Origin: Naegleria gruberi
Taxonomy: Eukaryota
Reading direction: 5' to 3' (one strand)
Assembly (NCBI GenBank): GCA_000004985.1
Contig: GG738859.1
Length of the DNA stretch: 64,000 bases
Shown piece after piece: positions 1 to 62,792 of this stretch (the first letter of the stretch is position 1; the number at the start of each line of letters is the position of its first letter). The position numbers and the translations under genes are program-made. The notes beneath the pieces were generated by a model. The model was not told the DNA's origin. It did not search any database and saw only the letters and a list, made by a program, of their open reading frames with translations.

Positions 1-3000
1 AAAGCTACATTAGAATCTCCACCATCAACTCCCTCTTCACCAGCAGAAGAAGAAGAAAAGAATGCTGTGGAAGAAACTGCCAACAACAAACCATCCAATG
101 TAATTATTCATGTAAAAAGAGAGGCAACACTGATTGACAATTATCCGAAAGAGAAGAAGAAGAAATCGTCTAATCAGTCTTCCGAGCAGCATCAACAACA
201 TTTTCAGGAGGATTCTTTTCTGGGTGGCTCAGATTTGACACCACTGAGCTTGCAATTTTTCACATTTCCAAATGATATTATTGCACAATTAATTGCATGC
301 AAAAAGTCAAATGACAGTCCCCTGTTAGAAGATCAAGACAATAATAATGAGAATAGTCAGGAAAATACTTCTTCACCATTAGAATTCGAGTTAAAGTGTA
401 TCGATGCTAGGAAACATACACTGCTGAAAGACATATTTTCTGGAGAGGAACAACTTGAATCATTGGAAAATAACAATTCCAATGATCAGGAAGAGGATCA
501 AGAGGAGGACTATGAAAATTTCATTGAACAGTCCAAAATTCACCCTCCAGCTCGATCCTATCACACTTTTATCAATACGGATGCATATGGATTTAAATAT
601 TATGGATTTTGTTATACTAAATTTTTCACATACCGAGTGTGTAATGTGACAAGAGATGGAAAACCAATCCATAATGATAATGTAGAGTTTTTCATTAGAT
701 ATCCATCATGTATTTGTATCCTTTCTAGATATGCCTTCCATTCTACCTTTTTAAAATTCTACTCTTTCCTAGATCAATATTTGTTCGAAAATAATGATGG
801 ATTCTTTTGTAGCGATTGTGGATATTTCACTTTCAATGAGGAATTATTGAAATACATGTACGATTTTTTCAATAATACTGATCCGAATGCTACGCCTGCC
901 ACTCCCTCTGGTTTGGACATGAATTTGTCACTGCCAGCTCTTTATGATAAGCTAGTTGTACATTTCCCTTCTATGGCTATCACATCTCCTTCTGACTATG
1001 TATTCACATCAAAAACCTCCACAGATCCTTCCAGTAATTGTATTAATGAAGTGAAAGTTGAATTTGACAAGATGCTCTTTGTGGGCACAAAAGAAGAACA
1101 CTTCAAAGAGGCAAGCCCAATCGATAAACATCACCATCAACCTTCCTCCCCTAATAGTAATTCCCCTAGTGATCCTTTTGATGATGCCTCCAAATCAACC
1201 GAAAAAGCTCCCAATTTTCCAATGTGTGACTTTGATTACTCAATTCTGACAACATGTTTGAGTATTGACAATATTATAACAATTGTAAATTACCTTTCCC
1301 TAGAAAAATCCTTAATCTTCCACAGCGTTAATTTATACAGAATGGTAATGGTAATGGAGAGTTTGAGACATTTAATTTATCCTTTCAGAATGACCTCAAT
1401 CTACATTCCAATTGCCCACGAAAAAATCATCAACTTTTTAGAAGCACCTTTCCCCTATATGGTTGGAACACATAGTGAAGTCATGTGGAACCATTTTAGA
1501 ATTGGATTCGAGAAGAAATCATCACCATTCAGAAGAACTCTCTGTTCACAATTTGAGGCACCCTCCTCTTCACATAAAGTGAACGTTCTCAATCTGAATG
1601 AAACCAAATTTTCAAACAAGGACAATATGGACTATGAAATGATTAATATTCCAGAAGGAGTTTGTATTGTAAACTTGGATGAAGATGTTATCAGATTTGT
1701 TGGAGAAGAGAGTGATGTATTATCATCAAAGAGTCAGTGGAAATGGTCTAGCGCTCTAATGCAGTACATTAAAGACGCAGTTGAAAAGAGTAGATCTAAT
1801 TTTGAAAAGAGCAATAGTGAATATATGAATCAAATCATCAAGAAGAGAGACGCTCAAATTCCCTCCCTCACCAGGAGAGGCAGTAGCTTCTTCTTCAAGG
1901 GCAGAAAGAAGGGTTCCTCAACTTTTATCAAAAATTCACCCTCAGTGAAGAATATTCTCGAGTCGTCTGAGGAAGTTGAAGTGACTGGAAAGGATCCACT
2001 CTCGAGTGGCTTATTTTCTCCATCAGCAAATAGCAATGATCATTATTTGAACCCTTCTCAAACTAGAAAAAGATCTGCAGCAGTTAGACCACTTGCAAAC
2101 CTCACTCAGAAAGAGCCACCACCAACCTCCACCCTTACCACTCCAAGACTTTCAATTTCAAACTCTCAAGCAATCATTTCTAAAAGGAAAAAGTCAGTAA
2201 TGGCTGTTGCTCAGGAAAATCAAGTGAGTCCACTTCTTACAGTTCACCCAATTAGAGAAATATTCTTGAATGTATTTATTAGATTACTTACTTGTTATGA
2301 AATATTTATTCAATTTGACAAGTTTGATCCAAAGAATGATATGAATATGACTGACATTTTTAATATTGACAAGTTTTTGAGTCTTGATAATTATGGAGGT
2401 TTTACTCCAGGATCTTCCCAAGTATCTCAAAATTTTAACCCATTCCAATTGAAGGACAAGACCATCAATAAGAAATTATTGATGGCTCTAACTCATTATG
2501 GAAATTATGGTGGTCATGTAGATTCTGTATTTCTCCGAGAATTCTTTAAAACTCAAATATTCCACTACTTTATCCAAAAGAAATGCGAGCTCTTTTGGAA
2601 TATTAGTAATTCCTTCAAGTCAAACACCCCAGAGGGAAATATGCCAATGAAGAGAACAGACTTTGCACAATCACTTCCTGATCTATTCGTTCAACATGAC
2701 AATATGCTCGAGCAAAACAAGCAATTGTCAGAGCATGTTCTTGCTTCAACAGTGACCAATACTTTCTACAAACTCTTTGATTACAAGATGCAACAATCTA
2801 CTGAAAGATTTTCACTCAATCTCTCCCTGATGCAAACCTCATACAGAAGATCATTCCTCTATAAACGAGGACGTTTCAGAAAGTCATGGAAGAAGAGATT
2901 CTTTGTTTTGAGAGATGACAATACAATGCTTTACTATGAAGGAGCAGAAGAAACTCAACTCAAAGGTTCAATCAAGTTGACTACCGATGGATTGACAAAG

Positions 3001-3690
3001 GTTTTCTCTGTCAAGGTCAATGAAAAGCGCATCTTTGAAAAGAATAGTGAATCTGAAGATGATTCATACTTTACATGGACAAAGAGCCAACAACTCGAAC
3101 TTGCTAGTTTATTGAAATTTGCTAGAGCCATGAATCAATCAGAGGATTCTGGAAGTGCTACCAATAATAATGAGGAAGAGGGAGTTCCTTCCACCTCTGA
3201 ACAATTCCCAACACCTTATGTTTTTGTGGTATTTGTGCCGGGTGGTAGATTGCTCTACTGTTGTGCTGAAAGTGAAAAAGCCAGAGAAGAATGGATCAAA
3301 GTTTTGAGAGCCAAGGTTATGCAATCAAATGTTACTTCCTCACTTCAGGATTATCTCAACAGATTGAAATGGCAACAAAGCAAGAAGAATTTCAACAAGA
3401 AGATTATTATCAATAGTGTTGGACATATAATCAACCATCAACCAAGTACTTCATCTATTTCCCATATCCAATCATCTCCCAATTTAGTGAATTCACCAAC
3501 ATCACCAGTCACTGCTATTCATCAACAACCTCTTGTTTTACACAAAATATTTGATTTTGTACCAATTGCTTTTAGAAATTCCAGCGAGCGTTACAAGGAA
3601 AGAAATGCAGACCTTGACATTCAAAGTATCAGTACAAGAATGCCTCTAGAGGAGTTCACACTAAGATCTTGTCTTGAAGTTATAAATTAA
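1..3690 (+). CDS. DENN-domain protein with a C-terminal PH domain. It is 5'-partial: frame 1 is open from position 1 and the ORF track begins at an internal GTG at 67.
   Basis: uDENN-like region (SYHTFINTDAYGFKYYGFCYTKFF) and core DENN region (IVNYLSLEKSLIFHSVNLYRMVMVMESLRHLIYPFRMTSIYIPIAHEKIINFLEAPFPYMVG). PH-like segment RGRFRKSWKKRFFVLRDDNTMLYYEG...WIKVLRAK. Continuous 1207-aa ORF. Confidence 0.6.
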   Translation, partial: KATLESPPSTPSSPAEEEEKNAVEETANNKPSNVIIHVKREATLIDNYPKEKKKKSSNQSSEQHQQHFQEDSFLGGSDLTPLSLQFFTFPNDIIAQLIACKKSNDSPLLEDQDNNNENSQENTSSPLEFELKCIDARKHTLLKDIFSGEEQLESLENNNSNDQEEDQEEDYENFIEQSKIHPPARSYHTFINTDAYGFKYYGFCYTKFFTYRVCNVTRDGKPIHNDNVEFFIRYPSCICILSRYAFHSTFLKFYSFLDQYLFENNDGFFCSDCGYFTFNEELLKYMYDFFNNTDPNATPATPSGLDMNLSLPALYDKLVVHFPSMAITSPSDYVFTSKTSTDPSSNCINEVKVEFDKMLFVGTKEEHFKEASPIDKHHHQPSSPNSNSPSDPFDDASKSTEKAPNFPMCDFDYSILTTCLSIDNIITIVNYLSLEKSLIFHSVNLYRMVMVMESLRHLIYPFRMTSIYIPIAHEKIINFLEAPFPYMVGTHSEVMWNHFRIGFEKKSSPFRRTLCSQFEAPSSSHKVNVLNLNETKFSNKDNMDYEMINIPEGVCIVNLDEDVIRFVGEESDVLSSKSQWKWSSALMQYIKDAVEKSRSNFEKSNSEYMNQIIKKRDAQIPSLTRRGSSFFFKGRKKGSSTFIKNSPSVKNILESSEEVEVTGKDPLSSGLFSPSANSNDHYLNPSQTRKRSAAVRPLANLTQKEPPPTSTLTTPRLSISNSQAIISKRKKSVMAVAQENQVSPLLTVHPIREIFLNVFIRLLTCYEIFIQFDKFDPKNDMNMTDIFNIDKFLSLDNYGGFTPGSSQVSQNFNPFQLKDKTINKKLLMALTHYGNYGGHVDSVFLREFFKTQIFHYFIQKKCELFWNISNSFKSNTPEGNMPMKRTDFAQSLPDLFVQHDNMLEQNKQLSEHVLASTVTNTFYKLFDYKMQQSTERFSLNLSLMQTSYRRSFLYKRGRFRKSWKKRFFVLRDDNTMLYYEGAEETQLKGSIKLTTDGLTKVFSVKVNEKRIFEKNSESEDDSYFTWTKSQQLELASLLKFARAMNQSEDSGSATNNNEEEGVPSTSEQFPTPYVFVVFVPGGRLLYCCAESEKAREEWIKVLRAKVMQSNVTSSLQDYLNRLKWQQSKKNFNKKIIINSVGHIINHQPSTSSISHIQSSPNLVNSPTSPVTAIHQQPLVLHKIFDFVPIAFRNSSERYKERNADLDIQSISTRMPLEEFTLRSCLEVIN

Positions 3691-3731
3691 TTTATTCTCT
3701 ATTTAAAATTTAATTTTGAATGAATTTAAGG

Positions 3732-6130
3732 TTAAAGCTCACAAGTTTGATTATCACAAAATCTTTCTGGTGAAGGTTCTTGTTTGATTCTATGTTCAGA
3801 AAGTGGTGATGTTGTTTTCAGTTTTGATCTCATTTCATTGTAAACTTCCTCCGTAATGCTCTCGTATGGCATTTGAGGATAAGGTGATGTATCTTGATCC
3901 ATCATTGGTAAAAAGCTAACTCCTTTGAGTTGATATTGGAAATAGTCAAGAGCATATTGAATCTGTTTACCTTCTGTTTGAGGATTGAAAGTAATAGTTG
4001 CACTGACCTGATTATCAGACCAATACTTTTGTAAAAAGGAAGCCAAAGATAATTGTTCCCACATTGAGAGCTCCTTTGCTGTTCTTATACCCTCTCCACA
4101 ATCTATTGGGAATTCAATAATGGTGGTATTTGGATCAGAGACTGCTGGTTCAGTTTTAAAACCTGCCTCTCTCAATGTTTCTACGAGTGGAGAATTATTA
4201 GCCAATCTCAATCGTCTAATGTAGAATCTCGAAATTGGATAATGCATTCCAGGTGTTGCTCCAGCAAGTAAACTCACAGTACCACTTGGCTTGATAGAGG
4301 TTGTTTTGATGGATCTTGGAATGGCCAACCAATCACTGAATTTCTTATCAAAATCTTGAATACTTTCATAACCCACCGAAGCCCATTTCTTCAATTCATC
4401 AATTCCTCTCTTGGTAATAAATTGTGCGATACCACTCATTGAACAACCAATTCTTCTATTTCTGAGCATTACTCTATTCACATCAGGCCAATGAGTCTTT
4501 CCCAAAGTTACAGTCTTGGCGAATAGGAAGGCATACTTGAGAGTTCTCTGGAAATCTTCCAATGACTCATGATTAGTTGGGAATGTCTCAACAAGACAAC
4601 ATAATTCATAACTTTCCAAAGTTTGTTCCAAACATGGATTACCTCCAGTAGCTCTGAAATCCTTGTTATCCTCAATTCCATTCATTCTAGAGAATTTTCT
4701 CATATTCTCCAAAAAGGCAATACCTGGTTCTCCATTAATTTCCATTCTCTTGGAAACCTTGGTATAATCCATGCCAATATTAGCAAATATAGAGTTGTTT
4801 GAGGTCCAGCCATATGACATTCTATGTGGATTCTTTTCATAATTTTTCAAATCAATAAATTCCTCATCATTAGCTTCACCAAAAGCAATTTCTGCTGATC
4901 TTCTAATATTTCCAGAAACTACACATTTTCCAATATAATTCATCAAATCCACAATATTTGTCACTGTAATTGGTTGTCCAGAACTCTTATCCAAAATAGA
5001 TTTGATATTTTCATGCAATTCTTTAAGAGATTCAGGTCCACTACTAACACCTCCAAATCCTCTAATAATTGCACCAGCTGGTCTAATCTTGCTGTAATCG
5101 AAAACTTGTGGTGCATTTCCGTTGAAATACGAATCTAACAACACTTTTACACTTTCAACCCATCCTTCTCTTGAATCGGCAATTATATTCATTGTTGGTT
5201 GTTTGGAATTGTCAATTCCCTTAATGACTGATATGTTAAATAAATTGAGTTAACAATATTGTTAAATATCAAAAAATAAACATATGAGCAGATTTCAAAA
5301 AACAACTTACCAAAACTTCCAGCTCCCTTTGTATCAAATCCAACTCCTACACCCAACATACTCATATCCATCAAAAAGACAAATGGCTTCAGAGGATCTT
5401 CTTTCATTGATTCTGTACTGACAAATGCACAATTATTAAGAGCTGCATAGAGACCTCTCTGTTCAGTCAATGGTGTTCCCATTCCCCAGAGACCTCTTCC
5501 AGATGGTAAGAATTTCATATTGAAAATTCTGTCATACATTTCCTGAGCAGATCTTTGAGCTTTTCTAGGATTCCAACCCAATTTATGATGCTCAATCCAA
5601 TTCCTTTGCATATTATAAGTACCATTCACAACTCTCTCCACAGTTTCATACCATTCTTCATTTCTATTCTCTTCCTCAATGACTCTTGAATAGGTTCTTT
5701 TATAAACCACTTCTCCGAGTCCATTAAAACCAAATGGTGGAGGTATATTCTTGTACTTTTCCACGAAAGCCTTACTCAACTTGAATCGATGCATATTTGA
5801 ATCATTGGTTACAGTTGTATCAATGGTCATACTGGTAGTTTCCAAATTACGTAGTTTTTTATATAATGTACTAATGTCAGCAGCCACTGATGATGATGTA
5901 TTACCTCCCATCACATCATTCATTAATTGAATATTTGTATGATAATTAAATCCCGAACAAGTCTTTATATTATTCAACATTAGAAATTCGTCATGATTTG
6001 ATTTCCTCCTCAACACAACTCCACCTTGTTTCCTACCAACACTACCCAACAAATATGTTGTTGAAGAGGTAGTAGTTGAGGAAACAACAGATCGTAAAAC
6101 AGTCTTTTGGCACGGTGATGATTTAAACAT
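3732..6130 (-). CDS. rtpR: Class II (adenosylcobalamin-dependent) monomeric ribonucleoside-triphosphate reductase, Lactobacillus leichmannii RTPR type. Two exons: complement(join(3732..5227,5311..6130)), with an 83-nt intron at 5228..5310.
   Basis: Strong similarity to L. leichmannii RTPR recalled from memory: LGEVVYKRTYSR...NEEWYETVERVVNGTY, LNNCAFV, PFVFLMDMSMLGVGVGF, DSREGWVESVKVLLDSYF, IRPAGAIIRGFGGVSSGP, GNIRRSAEIAFG...WTSNNS and a C-terminal CDNQTCEL redox tail. The donor is G|GTAAGT in the minus strand and the acceptor is TATCAG|TC; splicing joins GAGSF-V-IKGIDNSK in frame. The start codon is uncertain. The first in-frame ATG is at 6130; later Met codons such as MHRFKLSKAF lie closer to the bacterial N-terminus. 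Confidence 0.8.
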
Positions 6131-6391
6131 TTTTTCAAAAAGTTTGATAATTGGTTTTAAATACAAAGAGATTGAATTTTGATTAGGAAGAGATTTTAAA
6201 AGAAAGAGGTATTCTTTTTTGATTCGCATAGATCACACAGAGTATTTTGATTGAGCAGAGAGAGGGACTGGAATATTTGTGTGAGATTCTCAATTTTGAT
6301 TGGATTCAACAAGAGTTGAACCTTAATGAATAGTTTGGATAATATTGAGTGAATTGTTCTAATTGATTGAGGCAAAGAAGAAAAGAATAAT

Positions 6392-7708
6392 TTATTGAAT
6401 TTTAGCACCTTTTGCTTGACCTCTTTTCTTTTGATTCGGATTTAATAAACTCTTTGGTGCCTTTCGTTTTGGAGCTGAATTCTTTCGTTCCTGATCACTG
6501 GATGAGCTACCATCATCTGCAGCTGCACCAAGTCCTCCCAAATCGTGAGCTCCACTCGTAGTTGAAGGTTGATAGAGAATTAAACGATCTTGAGCTTGCC
6601 TCAATTTTTGACGTGTCTCTTGGAGCTCATTCCTCAGATCTGAGATGAGTTTGGCATCTTTGAGGGCACGAATTTCACTCAGTGCATTTCCATGACAAAC
6701 CAAATCCAAGAGTAATTGTTGCAATTTTTGTGTGAAATCACTAATGTGTCTGATGGCATATAACTCGAAAAGGAATTTGAGACGAATATTGAGGAGGGCA
6801 CTACTACCAGCTGTATTACTGGAAGAGGAATGTTGTGAATTGTCTTGTTGCTGATCTGAAGAAGAAGATTGTGGAATGGATTTGAGTGGTGAATAAATTA
6901 CAAGTTGGAGAACATCCTTTGATTCCTTATTTTCCTCATCAAATTGAAGAACAATATCACTCTCAGAAGGATCATCCATTCCAACACTCTTCTCACCTCT
7001 CTTATAAATAAACAATCCGTTTCTCAAGTATTGTAAATAATTGGCCCAAGAGATGTGATTCATACTAATCTTTTTACGATGTTGCTGCAAATCGTCAAAT
7101 CCCAAATCAGCTTCATAATATTCATCACCTCCATTAGTACAGGTCAGTAACAATCTCAATGCCTGTTGCTTAATTCTATCATTGAGTCGATCCAGATTCT
7201 TCAATTGTTGAACATCATTGGCCAGTGATTGTGTAAAACTTCCAACAACTGAAGCTGCTCCATTATTAGCTCTCCCTCCGTCAGTAGCCAAAACACAACT
7301 ATTAGAAATATCACCTCCTGCATAGTACTGTTCACTCGGAGCTCCAGCAAAATTATTCAATAATGAAATGGTCGTCTGATTTGGTAATTGATGATCGTGA
7401 GGATGATTGGCCTGTTGTTTTTGTGGATGATTCAATAGAGCACAATGATTTGATGTTGTCACACAGTGTTCCTCACTTGTGATGGCATTCCTAAATGGCC
7501 GAATAACTCTCATACTCACCACGAAGGGAACTCTATCTAGGTAGACAATCTTGTGAGTGGATTCCAATTTGGAGAGTTGTGTAATATAATCAATAAAATC
7601 CAATTTATCAACTTCATGTTCTTCTAAATCTTCCAATTGTTCTTCTCTTGTTGTTGATTGCAAGGAAGCTGATGATGATCCCGATAGAGAAGAGGATGTC
7701 GATTTCAT
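6392..7708 (-). CDS. Hypothetical protein with coiled-coil and Ser-rich regions. No function assigned.
   Basis: Continuous 438-aa ORF with codon usage similar to its neighbours. The C-terminal region is heptad-like (LQQLLLDLVCHGNALSEIRALKDAKLISDLRNELQETRQKLRQAQDRL). I recognise no domain with confidence. Confidence 0.45.
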   Translation of the reverse strand: MKSTSSSLSGSSSASLQSTTREEQLEDLEEHEVDKLDFIDYITQLSKLESTHKIVYLDRVPFVVSMRVIRPFRNAITSEEHCVTTSNHCALLNHPQKQQANHPHDHQLPNQTTISLLNNFAGAPSEQYYAGGDISNSCVLATDGGRANNGAASVVGSFTQSLANDVQQLKNLDRLNDRIKQQALRLLLTCTNGGDEYYEADLGFDDLQQHRKKISMNHISWANYLQYLRNGLFIYKRGEKSVGMDDPSESDIVLQFDEENKESKDVLQLVIYSPLKSIPQSSSSDQQQDNSQHSSSSNTAGSSALLNIRLKFLFELYAIRHISDFTQKLQQLLLDLVCHGNALSEIRALKDAKLISDLRNELQETRQKLRQAQDRLILYQPSTTSGAHDLGGLGAAADDGSSSSDQERKNSAPKRKAPKSLLNPNQKKRGQAKGAKIQ

Positions 7709-17062: not shown

Positions 17063-18172
17063 ATGTTGTCCAGAACCTTTCAACACACAAGACGTGTTCG
17101 TCCATCTAAAGTCTTGTCCATTCAACAACGCTCCTACAAGACACACCAATTTGAAAATGACGAACTTAACTTGAGTGAAGAAAACCAACATCAACTCACT
17201 AGAGCTTTGAGAACAATGAGAAACGAGGAGAGAAAACTCTACCAAGAAGCCAAGAAGGTTAAAGATACAACAGAACAATATAAAAACGCTAAAGTTGAAT
17301 TAGATGAAAACGGAAAATTCACCATGGAGTTACCAAAGGAAAAGGGAATTACCTTTGATGAGTATATTCAAGTTGTACAAGAAAAATCATCAGGTTATCC
17401 TTGGGTTCTTGGACCAAAAATCCGTCAAGCACTTCACCACGTCGAACAGGGAGCTGCTGAATCTTATACTCCTCTCCTCAAATATCGTCAAGAAGATTTA
17501 CGTGTTTATCAAGTTGCTAAGAAATTGCATACCATGTGGCAAGAAAGCGACTCGGAAAAGCCAATTACATATGATGATATTGAATTTGCCTTCAACTTGT
17601 ACAAAGTACATTGCGAAAATATGAAAATGATGAAGAGTGAATACTCTCTTGAATATACCAAGTTGATGAAGGTTCTCATTAATATTGTTTTGGTAAACAG
17701 AGAATATTGCAAGGTTGCCAAACAAGTTCTCAATGAATCAACAAAGAAATACAAGAAGGATATTTCATCAATTGAATCGGCAATTGAATCTAAATTGAAG
17801 GAATATGAATCAACTCAAAGTAATCAAGACAAACTTTTAATGCTCAGACTCTCCTCATACACCATTCAATCTATTTCTAAATTAGACTCTGATTTGGATG
17901 CTTATGAAAATATGGTTGTCCAATGTGTGAAATTGATGTATCCAGAAAGATGTATTATCTATGATTTGGACCTTTGTAAAAAACTTCTTTACATTTGCCG
18001 TACTACAACAGCTTCTTCCCTTTTGGAAAAGAGAAAGGAAATTATGGATGTTTCCTCAGTTCACTATGATAGAGAAAAACTCTTCCAACAAGCTATTGTC
18101 ATTTGTAAGGAATCTGAACAAGACTCTAAGATTCTTTCTCATCCATACGAATTGGAAAGACCAATTTTATAA
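17063..18172 (+). CDS. Hypothetical protein, 369 aa, with an N-terminal presequence that looks mitochondrial.
   Basis: MLSRTFQHTRRVRPSKVLSIQQRSYKTH is R/K/S-rich and lacks acidic residues. The rest is helical and Lys/Glu-rich. No domain recognised. Confidence 0.4.
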   Translation: MLSRTFQHTRRVRPSKVLSIQQRSYKTHQFENDELNLSEENQHQLTRALRTMRNEERKLYQEAKKVKDTTEQYKNAKVELDENGKFTMELPKEKGITFDEYIQVVQEKSSGYPWVLGPKIRQALHHVEQGAAESYTPLLKYRQEDLRVYQVAKKLHTMWQESDSEKPITYDDIEFAFNLYKVHCENMKMMKSEYSLEYTKLMKVLINIVLVNREYCKVAKQVLNESTKKYKKDISSIESAIESKLKEYESTQSNQDKLLMLRLSSYTIQSISKLDSDLDAYENMVVQCVKLMYPERCIIYDLDLCKKLLYICRTTTASSLLEKRKEIMDVSSVHYDREKLFQQAIVICKESEQDSKILSHPYELERPIL

Positions 18173-40043: not shown

Positions 40044-40116
40044 GCCGACATAGCTCAGTTGGGAGAGCGTAAGACTGAAGATCTTAAGGTCCCTGGTTCG
40101 ATCCCTGGTGTCGGCA
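40044..40116 (+). tRNA. tRNA-Phe, anticodon GAA, 73 nt, no encoded CCA.
   Basis: GCCGACATAGCTCAGTTGGGAGAGCGTAAGACTGAAGATCTTAAGGTCCCTGGTTCGATCCCTGGTGTCGGCA. The 7-bp acceptor stem GCCGACA pairs with TGTCGGC. D-loop AGCTCAGTTGGGAGAGC. Anticodon loop CTGAAGA. T-loop GGTTCGATCC. Confidence 0.9.
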
Positions 40117-62719: not shown

Positions 62720-62792
62720 GCCGACATAGCTCAGTTGGGAGAGCGTAAGACTGAAGATCTTAAGGTCCCTGGTTCGATCCCTGGTGTCGGCA
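62720..62792 (+). tRNA. tRNA-Phe, anticodon GAA, 73 nt. This is the second copy and is identical to the tRNA at 40044..40116.
   Basis: The same 73-nt sequence GCCGACATAGCTCAGTTGGGAGAGCGTAAGACTGAAGATCTTAAGGTCCCTGGTTCGATCCCTGGTGTCGGCA. The 3' flank is similar to copy 1 (CAAATTTTAGATTTTAG vs CAAATTTTGATTTTG). Confidence 0.9.

What the first reader, a model, noticed from the sequence alone, without database searches (positions are those of the whole stretch)
3732..6229. Bacterial-type class II (B12-dependent) monomeric ribonucleotide reductase in a eukaryote, with an N-terminal extension
The spliced product aligns over its whole length with the Lactobacillus leichmannii adenosylcobalamin-dependent RTPR (GxVTYKRTY, WxETVxRVVxG, LNNCxFV, GGVGF, IRPxGAxIxGFGGxxSGP, GNxRRSAExAxG, C-terminal Cys pair). 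Almost all eukaryotes use class I RNR. A class II enzyme is known only in a few protists, including Euglena and, as I recall, Dictyostelium. The gene has acquired a spliceosomal intron (83 nt) and about 100-130 codons of Ser/Thr-rich sequence upstream of the bacterial-like start. That extra sequence could be a targeting peptide, or it could simply reflect a later true start codon.
Basis: partly seen in the sequence, partly recalled or inferred. Interest (0 to 1): 0.6.

Follow-up and report, generated by a model that had tools for sequence, protein, structure and literature searches.

The report
Naegleria B12-dependent ribonucleotide reductase gene
This is the already catalogued vitamin-B12-dependent (class II) ribonucleotide reductase gene of the amoeba Naegleria gruberi. 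The public gene model appears to have lost about 110 real N-terminal codons, and these look like a signal that sends the enzyme into mitochondria.

Summary
On the minus strand, 6229..3732, two exons separated by an 83-nt GTAAGT..CAG intron (5310..5228) encode a monomeric adenosylcobalamin-dependent ribonucleoside-triphosphate reductase (RTPR). It scores 386.6 bits on TIGR02505 (cutoff 340) and E=1e-98 against L. leichmannii RTPR 1L1L, and all catalytic cysteines are present.

The window is Naegleria gruberi. The gene is NAEGRDRAFT_32325 / XP_002679146.1 / D2VAC0. It already appears in a published RNR phylogeny (Crona 2013), and N. gruberi also has class I RNR (Lundin 2010). The enzyme itself is therefore not new.

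What the analysis adds:
- **Truncated model.** The public 659-aa model starts at M146 and is very probably too short. The upstream frame scores as coding. N. fowleri, N. lovaniensis, Willaertia and a metagenomic Naegleria all have extensions over 100 aa with conserved blocks and no Met at that position.
- **Likely start.** It is probably M34 (window 6130).
- **Targeting signal.** The extension is predicted disordered, basic, Ser/Thr-rich and free of acidic residues for 46 residues, like verified N. gruberi mitochondrial presequences. Thirteen related eukaryotic RTPRs carry similar extensions; 107 viral-type ones do not.
- **Status.** Mitochondrial import is my best inference. It is not shown.
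- **Relatives.** The closest non-eukaryotic relatives are uncultured phage genes, not Lactobacillus.

The parts
3732..5227 (-). Exon 2 of the RTPR gene, including the stop codon at 3732-3734. It encodes residues 307-804 in M1 numbering.
   Evidence: It covers the insertion domain and barrel (Pfam PF21995, PF02867).
5228..5310 (-). Spliceosomal intron, 83 nt, GTAAGT...CAG, phase 1.
   Evidence: The junction is confirmed by the intronless N. fowleri and metagenomic orthologues. Willaertia has its one intron at a different site, GFGGV|SSGP.
5311..6130 (-). Exon 1 counted from the most probable start codon, M34. ATG at 6130-6128, context gaaaaaATG.
   Evidence: the orthologous start codons have the same A-rich context; positive coding score in frame.
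6131..6229 (-). Possible further 33 codons (M1..K33). It is uncertain whether they are translated.
   Evidence: The frame is open up to a stop two codons upstream of M1. The ATG context is poor, tgatctATG, and the coding score is weak at +0.10 bits/codon.
5795..6130 (-). N-terminal extension (M34..N145, 112 codons). It is absent from the public 659-aa model and from viral and bacterial RTPRs.
   Evidence: Coding score is +0.24 bits/codon against -0.84 and -1.20 in the other frames. In-frame stops number 0, against 11 and 16. The extension is conserved in orthologues. AlphaFold2 pLDDT is below 30 with almost no secondary structure predicted (one three-residue helix).
5993..6130 (-). Presequence-like stretch MFKSSPCQKTVLRSVVSSTTTSSTTYLLGSVGRKQGGVVLRRKSNH: 46 residues, 8 Lys/Arg, no Asp/Glu.
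   Evidence: Nine proteome-verified N. gruberi mitochondrial proteins show 24-58 acid-free residues with 3-8 Lys/Arg.
5936..5944 (-). Conserved (Y/F)-H-T motif inside the extension.
   Evidence: H64 and T65 are invariant in five heterolobosean sequences. The motif resembles the R-x-F-(H/G/S)-(S/T) ends of verified N. gruberi presequences. Its function is inferred.
5819..5863 (-). Conserved block YKKLRNLETTSMTID just upstream of the catalytic core. Its role is unexplained.
   Evidence: K91, R94, L96, T98, S100 and T102 are invariant in five species; coordinates checked.
5792..5794 (-). M146, the start codon of the public model XP_002679146.1. It is probably an internal Met.
   Evidence: P0001 is 659 aa and 100% identical from this Met onward. 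The orthologues have H or Y at this position.
5474..5779 (-). RNR_Alpha N-terminal domain (residues 151-252).
   Evidence: Pfam PF17975, E=9.5e-45.
5429..5431 (-). Cys267 (in LNNC), equivalent to L. leichmannii Cys119 of the active-site redox pair.
4626..4640 (-). Finger-loop motif N503-P-C505-L-E507, equivalent to L. leichmannii N406/C408/E410. The Cys is the thiyl-radical residue.
   Evidence: Alignment to 1L1L. The motif is present in 121 of 121 homologues; coordinates checked.
4596..4607 (-). ELCC (residues 514-517). It contains the equivalent of L. leichmannii Cys419, the second redox-pair Cys.
3741..3758 (-). C-terminal Cys pair C797-DNQT-C802, equivalent to L. leichmannii C731/C736. This pair shuttles reducing equivalents from thioredoxin.
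   Evidence: CxxxxC near the C-terminus occurs in 119 of 121 homologues.

Best explanation
The locus is the Naegleria gruberi nuclear gene for a monomeric, adenosylcobalamin-dependent ribonucleoside-triphosphate reductase (class II RNR, NrdJm/RTPR; NAEGRDRAFT_32325).

**Catalysis, by homology with the L. leichmannii enzyme.** Homolysis of the Co-C bond of AdoCbl oxidises Cys505 to a thiyl radical. The radical abstracts the 3'-H of a ribonucleoside triphosphate. Cys267 and Cys516/517, with Asn503 and Glu507, reduce the 2'-carbon. The resulting disulfide is re-reduced by the C-terminal pair Cys797/Cys802, and ultimately by thioredoxin. An inserted domain that mimics a dimer interface carries the allosteric specificity site.

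**Gene structure.** The gene is a horizontally acquired prokaryote- or phage-type gene that has been fully domesticated. It has the host's base composition, one lineage-specific intron, and a translated N-terminal extension of about 112 residues. Translation most likely starts at M34 (window 6130), not at M146 as in the public model.

**Function of the extension (inferred).** It is a mitochondrial presequence. The enzyme would be imported into the mitochondrion, where AdoCbl is made and where thioredoxin and NTPs are available. There it would make dNTPs for mitochondrial DNA, while the class I RNR serves the nucleus.

**Confidence by component.**

| Claim | Confidence |
|---|---|
| RTPR identity | 0.98 |
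| Extension is translated | 0.9 |
| Start at M34 rather than M1 | 0.6 |
| Mitochondrial import | about 0.45-0.5 |
For: **Identity.**
- TIGR02505 scores 386.6 bits against a cutoff of 340.
- Pfam finds RNR_Alpha, RNR-II_ins_dom and the barrel domain.
- 1L1L matches at E=9.6e-99.
- The AlphaFold2 model's best PDB match is 1L1L, E=1e-40 and TM 0.68-0.72. T. maritima dimeric NrdJ reaches only TM about 0.4.
- The catalytic Cys, Asn and Glu residues are present.

**Eukaryotic, and already known.**
- P0001 is 100% identical to XP_002679146.1 / D2VAC0 on a 530-kb scaffold.
- The neighbouring gene is a DENN/PH gene and GC content is uniform at about 35%.
- N. gruberi NrdJ appears in the phylogeny of Crona 2013.
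- N. gruberi appears in the class I NrdA and NrdB trees of Lundin 2010.

**Extension is translated.**
- 0 of 20000 shuffles stay open. The coding score is +0.24 bits/codon, against -0.84 and -1.20 in the other frames. Stops number 0 in frame, against 11 and 16.
- The four heterolobosean orthologues carry extensions of 105-161 aa (115 aa in N. gruberi from M34), with invariant residues and no Met at the M146 position.
- Between N. fowleri and N. lovaniensis, all six indels are multiples of 3 and dN/dS is 0.42.
- The context of M34 matches the orthologous start codons.

**Presequence character.**
- The first 46 residues are acid-free and hold 8 Lys/Arg. Verified N. gruberi mitochondrial proteins show 24-58 residues and 3-8 Lys/Arg. 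The median first acidic position in 28 other window ORFs is 9.
- All 13 related eukaryotic RTPR sequences examined (from about 12 species) have acid-poor, basic extensions of 44-161 aa. In 107 viral-type proteins the core starts at about residue 3.
- The extension is predicted disordered.
- The D. discoideum nrdJ cloning primer encodes MLTIKRLLLN.

**Plausibility of a mitochondrial site.**
- The N. gruberi mitochondrial proteome contains methylmalonyl-CoA mutase, cob(I)alamin adenosyltransferase, a thioredoxin and NDP kinase.
- The Euglena RTPR is listed in a mitochondrial proteome: detected in the mitochondrial but not the chloroplast fraction, with an organellar TargetP call.
Against: - No localisation predictor or experiment was available.
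- XP_002679146 is not among the stored rows of the N. gruberi mitochondrial proteome table. However, 344 rows of that sheet are not held, so this is inconclusive.
- The maximal helical hydrophobic moment from M34 is modest at 0.31, and AlphaFold2 predicts no amphipathic helix.
- N. gruberi lacks the Arg at -3 of the (Y/F)HT motif that Willaertia and the metagenomic Naegleria have.
- The extension, at about 110 aa, is longer than a typical presequence. It also contains a conserved block (YKKxRxLETTSMTID) that a pure targeting peptide would not need.
- The Euglena proteome list also contains actin and myosin, so it includes contaminants. Euglena has only class II RNR, so its enzyme cannot be exclusively mitochondrial.
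- No transcript data were available to fix the N. gruberi start codon.
Confidence: 0.5

Rival explanations
1. The extension is translated but is not an import signal. It would be a disordered regulatory or localisation tail on a cytosolic or nuclear enzyme, for example carrying a nuclear localisation signal or a degradation signal. That enzyme would act as an oxygen-independent back-up to class I RNR.
For: The most conserved part of the extension is the block [YF]K[KR][QL]RxL[ED]T[TS]S[ML]T[IL] next to the core. It contains a K(K/R)x(R) element, the loose consensus of a monopartite nuclear localisation signal (from general knowledge), and it is invariant at six positions. Crona 2013 suggests hypoxia tolerance as a possible role for the class II enzyme in Dictyostelium. 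The protein was not found in the stored part of the N. gruberi mitochondrial proteome.
Against: An acid-free, Lys/Arg- and Ser/Thr-rich N-terminus of 34-94 residues recurs in all but one of the 13 related eukaryotic RTPR sequences examined (Balamuthia has an early Glu at position 20), although their sequences are not alignable. That is the signature of a targeting peptide rather than of a conserved regulatory domain. It matches verified N. gruberi presequences. The NLS consensus is very loose.
Confidence: 0.3
2. In N. gruberi the extension is not translated. The protein starts at M146, as in the RefSeq model, and is cytosolic. The upstream open frame would be a relic.
For: The public model XP_002679146.1 starts at M146. 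M146 lies three residues before the start of homology to bacterial RTPR. This Met is specific to N. gruberi and could be a newly evolved start.
Against: The upstream frame is open for 147 codons, and 0 of 20000 shuffles reproduce that. It carries host codon bias in the correct frame only. It retains the blocks conserved with four other species whose genes cannot start at that position. Purifying selection and in-frame indels are seen in the sister species.
Confidence: 0.08
3. The gene is bacterial or phage contamination of the assembly, or a very recent and not yet functional transfer.
For: The protein is 65-68% identical to proteins on uncultured phage contigs.
Against: The gene has a spliceosomal intron, the same GC content as its neighbours and eukaryotic flanking genes. 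It lies on a 530-kb scaffold. Orthologues in N. fowleri, N. lovaniensis and Willaertia lie in conserved RRM-RTPR-HDAC synteny. Heterolobosean sequences form a clade with 100% NJ bootstrap support.
Confidence: 0.01

Closest known systems
Lactobacillus leichmannii adenosylcobalamin-dependent ribonucleoside-triphosphate reductase (PDB 1L1L), the prototype monomeric class II RNR
   Same: The same domain order and fold: E=1e-98 by sequence, Foldseek TM about 0.7. The same finger-loop NPCxE, the same redox Cys pair, the same C-terminal CxxxxC and the same dimer-mimicking insertion domain.
   Different: Only about 30% identical. The Naegleria protein has an N-terminal extension of about 112-145 residues and an intron in its gene.
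Eukaryotic monomeric NrdJ clan: Dictyostelium discoideum NrdJ, Euglena gracilis RTPR, stramenopile and Capsaspora enzymes (Crona et al. 2013; Lundin et al. 2010)
   Same: N. gruberi NrdJ is placed in this clan in the published tree. Like Dictyostelium, N. gruberi also has class I RNR. The Dictyostelium protein also starts with a basic N-terminus, MLTIKRLLLN.
   Different: Those papers, as far as I could search them, do not discuss the N-terminal extensions or subcellular location. The role of class II in Dictyostelium is called enigmatic. Euglena has class II only.
Heterolobosean orthologues: N. fowleri FDP41_000484 (818 aa), N. lovaniensis C9374_001961, Willaertia magna ABK040_015317
   Same: 75-80% identity over the core. 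They share the extension with conserved (Y/F)HT and YKKxRxL(E/D)TTSMTID blocks.
   Different: The N. fowleri gene is intronless, and Willaertia has an intron at another site. Those genes lie in RRM-RTPR-HDAC synteny, which is broken in N. gruberi. Their models include the extension, whereas the N. gruberi model does not.
RTPR of uncultured marine and aquatic phages (virioplankton class II RTPR, Wu et al. 2023)
   Same: 65-68% identical to the Naegleria core. Together with the eukaryotic sequences they form a clan with 100% NJ bootstrap support.
   Different: These proteins are 656-674 aa (the 18 in the viral clade) with no N-terminal extension; the core begins at about residue 3. They are encoded next to UvsX, FEN-type exonuclease, DnaB and family-B polymerase genes.

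Membership tests
Monomeric AdoCbl-dependent RTPR (class II RNR, NrdJm; NCBIfam TIGR02505) | Whole-protein match to the curated family model above its trusted cutoff | tested here: met
   386.6 bits against a cutoff of 340.05, E=2e-115.
Monomeric AdoCbl-dependent RTPR (class II RNR, NrdJm; NCBIfam TIGR02505) | Finger-loop thiyl-radical Cys with flanking Asn and Glu (L. leichmannii N406/C408/E410) | tested here: met
   N503-P-C505-L-E507 aligns to tNPCgE of 1L1L.
Monomeric AdoCbl-dependent RTPR (class II RNR, NrdJm; NCBIfam TIGR02505) | Active-site redox Cys pair (C119/C419) and C-terminal Cys pair (C731/C736) | tested here: met
   LNNC (C267), ELCC (C516/517) and C797-x4-C802.
Monomeric AdoCbl-dependent RTPR (class II RNR, NrdJm; NCBIfam TIGR02505) | Inserted domain that mimics the dimer interface, making the enzyme monomeric rather than dimeric NrdJ | tested here: met
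   Pfam PF21995 matches at E=1.2e-12. The fold match to 1L1L has TM 0.68-0.72, against about 0.4 for T. maritima NrdJ. TIGR02504 (dimeric) scores only 75.9 bits against a cutoff of 399.95.
Monomeric AdoCbl-dependent RTPR (class II RNR, NrdJm; NCBIfam TIGR02505) | Adenosylcobalamin dependence, NTP rather than NDP substrates, thioredoxin as reductant | not testable with these tools
   Biochemical properties. They are inferred from homology to the L. leichmannii and Euglena enzymes.
Class I RNR large subunit (NrdA/NrdE, TIGR02506) | Match to the family model above its cutoff | tested here: not met
   20.2 bits against a cutoff of 341.05, and only the shared barrel segment matches.
Proteins imported into mitochondria by a cleavable N-terminal presequence | An N-terminal segment rich in Arg/Lys and Ser/Thr and devoid of Asp/Glu, absent from prokaryotic homologues | tested here: met
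   46 acid-free residues with 8 Lys/Arg counted from M34. This is within the range of nine verified N. gruberi mitochondrial proteins. Viral-type homologues lack it.
Proteins imported into mitochondria by a cleavable N-terminal presequence | Amphipathic helix and a recognisable MPP cleavage motif (R-2/R-3) | tested here: inconclusive
   The maximum hydrophobic moment is 0.31 from M34 and 0.60 from M1, and AlphaFold2 predicts no helix. Willaertia (KRSFHT) and the metagenomic Naegleria (RRYHT) fit an R-3-like site. N. gruberi (FNYHT) lacks the Arg.
Proteins imported into mitochondria by a cleavable N-terminal presequence | Experimental detection in the organelle | tested here: inconclusive
   XP_002679146 is absent from the stored rows of the N. 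gruberi mitochondrial proteome, but 344 rows are not held. The Euglena orthologue is listed in a mitochondrial proteome that also contains contaminants.

The most novel reading that the evidence does not exclude
The class II RTPR of Naegleria would be a dedicated mitochondrial ribonucleotide reductase. The same would hold for the related enzymes of many amoebozoans and other protists that also keep a class I RNR. The enzyme would be imported through its N-terminal presequence. It would use AdoCbl made in the organelle by cob(I)alamin adenosyltransferase and reducing power from mitochondrial thioredoxin, and it would make dNTPs from matrix NTPs for mtDNA replication, independently of the cell-cycle-regulated and oxygen-dependent cytosolic class I enzyme. 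That would explain the 'enigmatic' coexistence of the two classes in eukaryotes. The gene may have entered eukaryotes from, or been exchanged with, large phages.
Probability: 0.4. Interest if true: 0.65.

Novelty: already known. Interest (0 to 1): 0.35.

Why it matters
The enzyme itself is a known curiosity: a B12-dependent, horizontally acquired RNR in a eukaryote that also has the standard class I enzyme. Why such organisms keep both has been called enigmatic (Crona 2013).

A conserved, presequence-like N-terminal extension turns that question into a testable hypothesis, namely an organelle-resident RNR that supplies mtDNA precursors. It is present across heteroloboseans, amoebozoans and others, and it is missing from the public N. 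gruberi model. As far as I know, no eukaryote has an established dedicated mitochondrial RNR.

In practice, the N. gruberi gene model (XP_002679146.1 / D2VAC0) should be extended at its 5' end. The N. fowleri orthologue, being unlike any human enzyme, would be a more clearly defined drug-target candidate if its location and role were known.

Tried and rejected
- **Bacterial promoter and terminator scan** of 5700-6500. It is irrelevant for a eukaryotic gene, and the counts were near the shuffle expectation.
- **Search of 1.84 billion representative proteins**. It returned unnamed and mostly intein-containing RTPRs. It was useful only as outgroup material. The extended N-termini of the more distant representatives are acidic or ATP-cone-like, not presequence-like.
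- **Cultured-phage database**. The best hit is only 45% identical, so the close viral relatives are uncultured only.
- **GTDB genomes**. There were four hits. Three are on MAG contigs of about 3 kb and are likely binned viral DNA. The fourth is a Flavobacteriales MAG at 49% identity.
- **Literature.** No paper links class II RNR with mitochondrial targeting. No paper cites the accession numbers. Torrents 2006 (Euglena RTPR) is not held. The Andalucia, Acanthamoeba and N. fowleri papers do not mention the enzyme.
- **Tripeptide counts in the N. gruberi proteome table.** FHT, FHS and YHT occur 21-24 times, against 9-12 for the reversed controls THF and SHF. I judged this too crude to use, and the THY control was contaminated by English words.
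- **Balamuthia 'variant 2'** (P0274). I suspected it was an isoform lacking the N-terminus, but it is a C-terminal splice variant.
- **AlphaFold2 model.** With 33 sequences it reached only a mean pLDDT of 63.8. That is adequate for fold assignment but not for detail.
- **Contamination.** Rejected (see the rival explanations).
Full report
**1. What is in the sequence**

The finding's coordinates are correct, and the gene is on the minus strand. Two ORFs, 6229..5189 and 5192..3732, become a single 804-codon frame when 5310..5228 is removed. That intron is 83 nt, GTAAGT...CAG, phase 1. The spliced junction ...DTKGAGSF|VIKGIDNSK... matches the uninterrupted sequence of intronless orthologues in N. 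fowleri and a metagenomic Naegleria. The intron is therefore real.

**2. What the protein is**

- Pfam finds RNR_Alpha (residues 151-252, E=9.5e-45), the B12-RNR insertion domain and the RNR barrel.
- NCBIfam TIGR02505, the adenosylcobalamin-dependent ribonucleoside-triphosphate reductase equivalog, scores 386.6 bits against a trusted cutoff of 340.
- The dimeric NrdJ model (75.9 bits, cutoff 400) and the class I NrdA model (20 bits, cutoff 341) fail.
- The only strong PDB sequence match is L. leichmannii RTPR 1L1L, at E=9.6e-99, with query residues 149-774 against chain residues 5-702.
- An AlphaFold2 model (mean pLDDT 63.8, so modest) has 1L1L as its best structural match, with E=1e-40 and TM 0.68-0.72. 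T. maritima dimeric NrdJ and class I R1 reach only TM about 0.4.
- The catalytic residues known from the L. leichmannii enzyme are all conserved:

| N. gruberi residue or motif | L. leichmannii equivalent |
|---|---|
| Cys267 in LNNC | C119 |
| Asn503-Pro-Cys505-Leu-Glu507 | N406/C408/E410 |
| ELCC 514-517 | C419 |
| Cys797-x4-Cys802 | C731/C736 |

**3. Whose gene it is, and whether it is new**

The core is 100% identical to the 659-aa 'predicted protein [Naegleria gruberi]': EFC46402.1 / XP_002679146.1 / UniProt D2VAC0 / NAEGRDRAFT_32325. It lies on a 530-kb scaffold, and UniRef names it ribonucleoside-triphosphate reductase.

The flanks are eukaryotic. A DENN+PH-domain gene lies convergent to it, with the two stop codons 41 nt apart, and GC content is uniform at about 35%. 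Contamination is excluded.

The gene is already in the literature. Crona et al. 2013 place N. gruberi NrdJ in the eukaryotic monomeric class II clan with Dictyostelium, stramenopiles, Euglena and Capsaspora. Orlowska et al. 2021 list N. gruberi among eukaryotes whose sequences fall in the clades of B12-related enzyme families. Lundin et al. 2010 show N. gruberi in both the class I NrdA and NrdB trees. The headline of the finding is correct but already known.

**4. The intron**

N. fowleri (2457 nt for 818 aa plus stop) and the metagenomic Naegleria (2331 nt for 776 aa plus stop) have no intron. Willaertia magna has one of 74 nt at a different site, GFGGV|SSGP. Intron positions in this gene are therefore lineage-specific, as expected for a domesticated transferred gene.

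**5. Is the N-terminal extension translated?**

The public model starts at M146, three residues before homology to bacterial RTPR begins. Four lines of evidence say this model is truncated.

- **(a) The frame is open and coding-like.** It is open for 147 codons upstream of M146, with a stop two codons before M1. None of 20000 shuffles of the extension stays open. The other two frames contain 11 and 16 stops. With a codon model trained on 18 long ORFs of the window, M34..N145 scores +0.24 bits/codon in frame, against -0.84 and -1.20 out of frame. Core exon 1 scores +0.39 by comparison.
- **(b) The orthologues also have extensions.** N. fowleri, N. lovaniensis, Willaertia and the metagenomic Naegleria have 105-161 residues before the core. 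At the M146 position they have His or Tyr. No Met near the core is shared by all five.
- **(c) The extensions share invariant residues.** These fall in a (Y/F)-H-T motif and a block [YF]K[KR][QL]RxL[ED]T[TS]S[ML]T[IL].
- **(d) Selection acts on the extension.** Between N. fowleri and N. lovaniensis, all six indels in the extension are multiples of three, and dN/dS is 0.42.

The orthologous start codons sit in A-rich contexts (caaaaaATG, gaaaaaATG, aaaataATG). N. gruberi M34 (window 6130, gaaaaaATG) fits this, and M1 (6229, tgatctATG) does not. The 33 codons between them score only +0.10 bits/codon. I therefore favour M34, which gives a 771-aa protein, at about 60% confidence. No transcript data were available.

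**6. What the extension is for**

This step is inferred, not shown.

*Evidence for a mitochondrial presequence*

- From M34, the first 46 residues contain 8 Lys/Arg, many Ser/Thr and no Asp/Glu.
- Nine proteins from the experimentally derived N. gruberi mitochondrial proteome (Horvathova et al. 2021, Supplementary Data 2) have 24-58 acid-free residues with 3-8 Lys/Arg. In 28 other ORFs of this window the median first acidic residue is at position 9.
- All 13 related eukaryotic RTPR sequences I examined have basic, acid-poor extensions of 44-161 residues. These are the Naegleria species, Willaertia, Balamuthia, Thecamoeba, Luapelamoeba, a Filamoeba-like sequence, Rigifila and unnamed transcriptome entries. 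In 107 viral-type homologues the core starts at about residue 3 and the median first acidic residue is at position 2.
- The D. discoideum nrdJ cloning primer encodes MLTIKRLLLN.
- The extension is predicted disordered, with pLDDT below 30.
- Several extensions end their acid-free part in R-x-(F/Y)-(H/S/G)-(S/T)-like strings: KRSFHT, RRYHT, RHYSS, RQYSI, RSFGT. These resemble the RLFST, KRSFGT, RQSFHSS and RNFSSS strings of verified N. gruberi presequences. I give this only as a qualitative resemblance.
- The N. gruberi mitochondrial proteome contains the other AdoCbl enzyme (methylmalonyl-CoA mutase), the adenosyltransferase that makes AdoCbl, a thioredoxin and NDP kinase. Cofactor and reductant are therefore available in the organelle.
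- The Euglena RTPR is listed in the Euglena mitochondrial proteome. It was detected in the mitochondrial but not the chloroplast fraction, and TargetP gives it an organellar call.

*Evidence against*

- XP_002679146 is not among the stored rows of the Naegleria table. However, 344 rows are missing from my copy.
- The hydrophobic moment is modest.
- N. gruberi lacks the Arg of the R-3-like site.
- The extension is long, and it includes a conserved block that could instead be a processing site or a loose NLS-like K(K/R)xR element.
- The Euglena list includes obvious contaminants, and Euglena has no class I RNR, so its enzyme must also serve the nucleus.

I put mitochondrial import at roughly 45-50%. 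A translated but non-targeting tail gets about 30%, and an untranslated extension under 10%.

**7. Where the gene came from (side result)**

The 656-674-aa proteins that are 65-68% identical to the Naegleria core are not from cultured bacteria.

- Their contigs carry a UvsX-like recombinase, a FEN-type exonuclease, a DnaB-like helicase and a family-B DNA polymerase.
- At least 596 IMG/VR viral contigs encode close relatives.
- One scan of 185,579 species-representative genomes gave four hits. Three are on MAG contigs of about 3 kb, and the fourth is a Flavobacteriales MAG at 49%.
- Cultured phages reach only 45%.
- In an NJ tree, the viral group (bootstrap 100) and the eukaryotic sequences form one clan (100). 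Heterolobosea is monophyletic (100). Eukaryote monophyly is weak (58).

RTPR-carrying virioplankton are known (Wu et al. 2023), but in the passages of that paper I searched I found no mention of a link to the eukaryotic clan. The direction of transfer is not resolved. 'Bacterial-type' should be read as 'prokaryote/phage-type'.

**8. Mechanism**

The steps below are known for the L. leichmannii enzyme, and the residues are conserved here. AdoCbl homolysis generates the Cys505 thiyl radical. This is followed by 3'-H abstraction from an NTP, reduction by the Cys267 and Cys516/517 pair, and re-reduction through the C-terminal Cys797/Cys802 pair by thioredoxin. Allosteric specificity is mediated by the dimer-mimicking insertion. 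For this particular protein, AdoCbl dependence, NTP preference and reductant are inferred from homology, not tested.

**9. Verdict**

The new points are:
- a probable 5' truncation of the public N. gruberi model;
- a conserved, presequence-like extension shared by related eukaryotic RTPRs, which makes the 'enigmatic' role of class II RNR in class I-containing eukaryotes testable as a mitochondrial dNTP source;
- a phage sister group.

Interest is moderate to low as it stands (0.35). It would be clearly higher if mitochondrial localisation were shown.

Noticed in passing
L005:5001-7013, L006:4330-6342, L011-L090 (IMG/VR): The closest non-eukaryotic relatives of the Naegleria/amoebozoan RTPR (65-68% identity) are on uncultured phage-like contigs, next to UvsX, FEN exonuclease, DnaB and PolB genes. 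In NJ trees the viral clade (bootstrap 100) groups with the eukaryotic sequences (100), while eukaryote monophyly gets only 58. This hints at phage-eukaryote gene exchange.
   Followed up: partly
L091:3001-5187 (N. lovaniensis): The N. lovaniensis gene model (P0005, 687 aa) lacks internal and C-terminal segments. Read straight through, the ORF stops at codon 374. Either the assembly has a frameshift or the model has mis-called introns.
   Followed up: partly
L001/L002, L004, L091 versus window 67-7708: RRM-protein / RTPR / histone-deacetylase gene order is conserved in N. fowleri, N. lovaniensis and Willaertia; the 4.6-kb metagenomic Naegleria contig shows only the RRM gene upstream. In N. gruberi the RTPR instead lies between a convergent DENN+PH gene, with stop codons only 41 nt apart, and an unannotatable 438-aa ORF.
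   Followed up: partly
window 5819-5863 (-): A 15-residue block YKKLRNLETTSMTID just upstream of the catalytic core is nearly invariant in five heterolobosean species but absent from other eukaryotic RTPRs. Its role is unexplained. It could be a processing site or an NLS-like K(K/R)xR element.
   Followed up: partly
window 17063-18169 (+): A 369-aa ORF with no Pfam hit has a textbook presequence-like N-terminus (MLSRTFQHTRRVRPSKVLSIQQRSYKTHQF; first acidic residue at 31, 7 Lys/Arg). It may be an uncharacterised mitochondrial protein.
   Followed up: partly
window 40044-40116 (+) and 62720-62792 (+): Two sequence-identical tRNA-Phe(GAA) genes lie 22.7 kb apart, with unrelated flanking sequence.
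   Followed up: yes
P0122-P0271 (representative search): A large share of the RTPR representatives at 46-62% identity are 900-2000 aa long and match the query in 2-5 separate stretches. This is the pattern expected for intein-interrupted RNR genes.
   Followed up: no
P0008 (Rigifila ramosa transcript): The transcriptome-derived protein contains an exact internal duplication of about 70 residues (IRRVLIGKDSPLL...ADNQVSC twice). This is most likely an assembly artefact.
   Followed up: no
PMC7403612 Suppl. Table 4 (EG_transcript_3404): The Euglena gracilis RTPR is listed among 'verified' mitochondrial-fraction proteins (MT/CP ratio infinite, TargetP class C). The main text does not comment on it, and the same list also holds actin and myosin.
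   Followed up: partly
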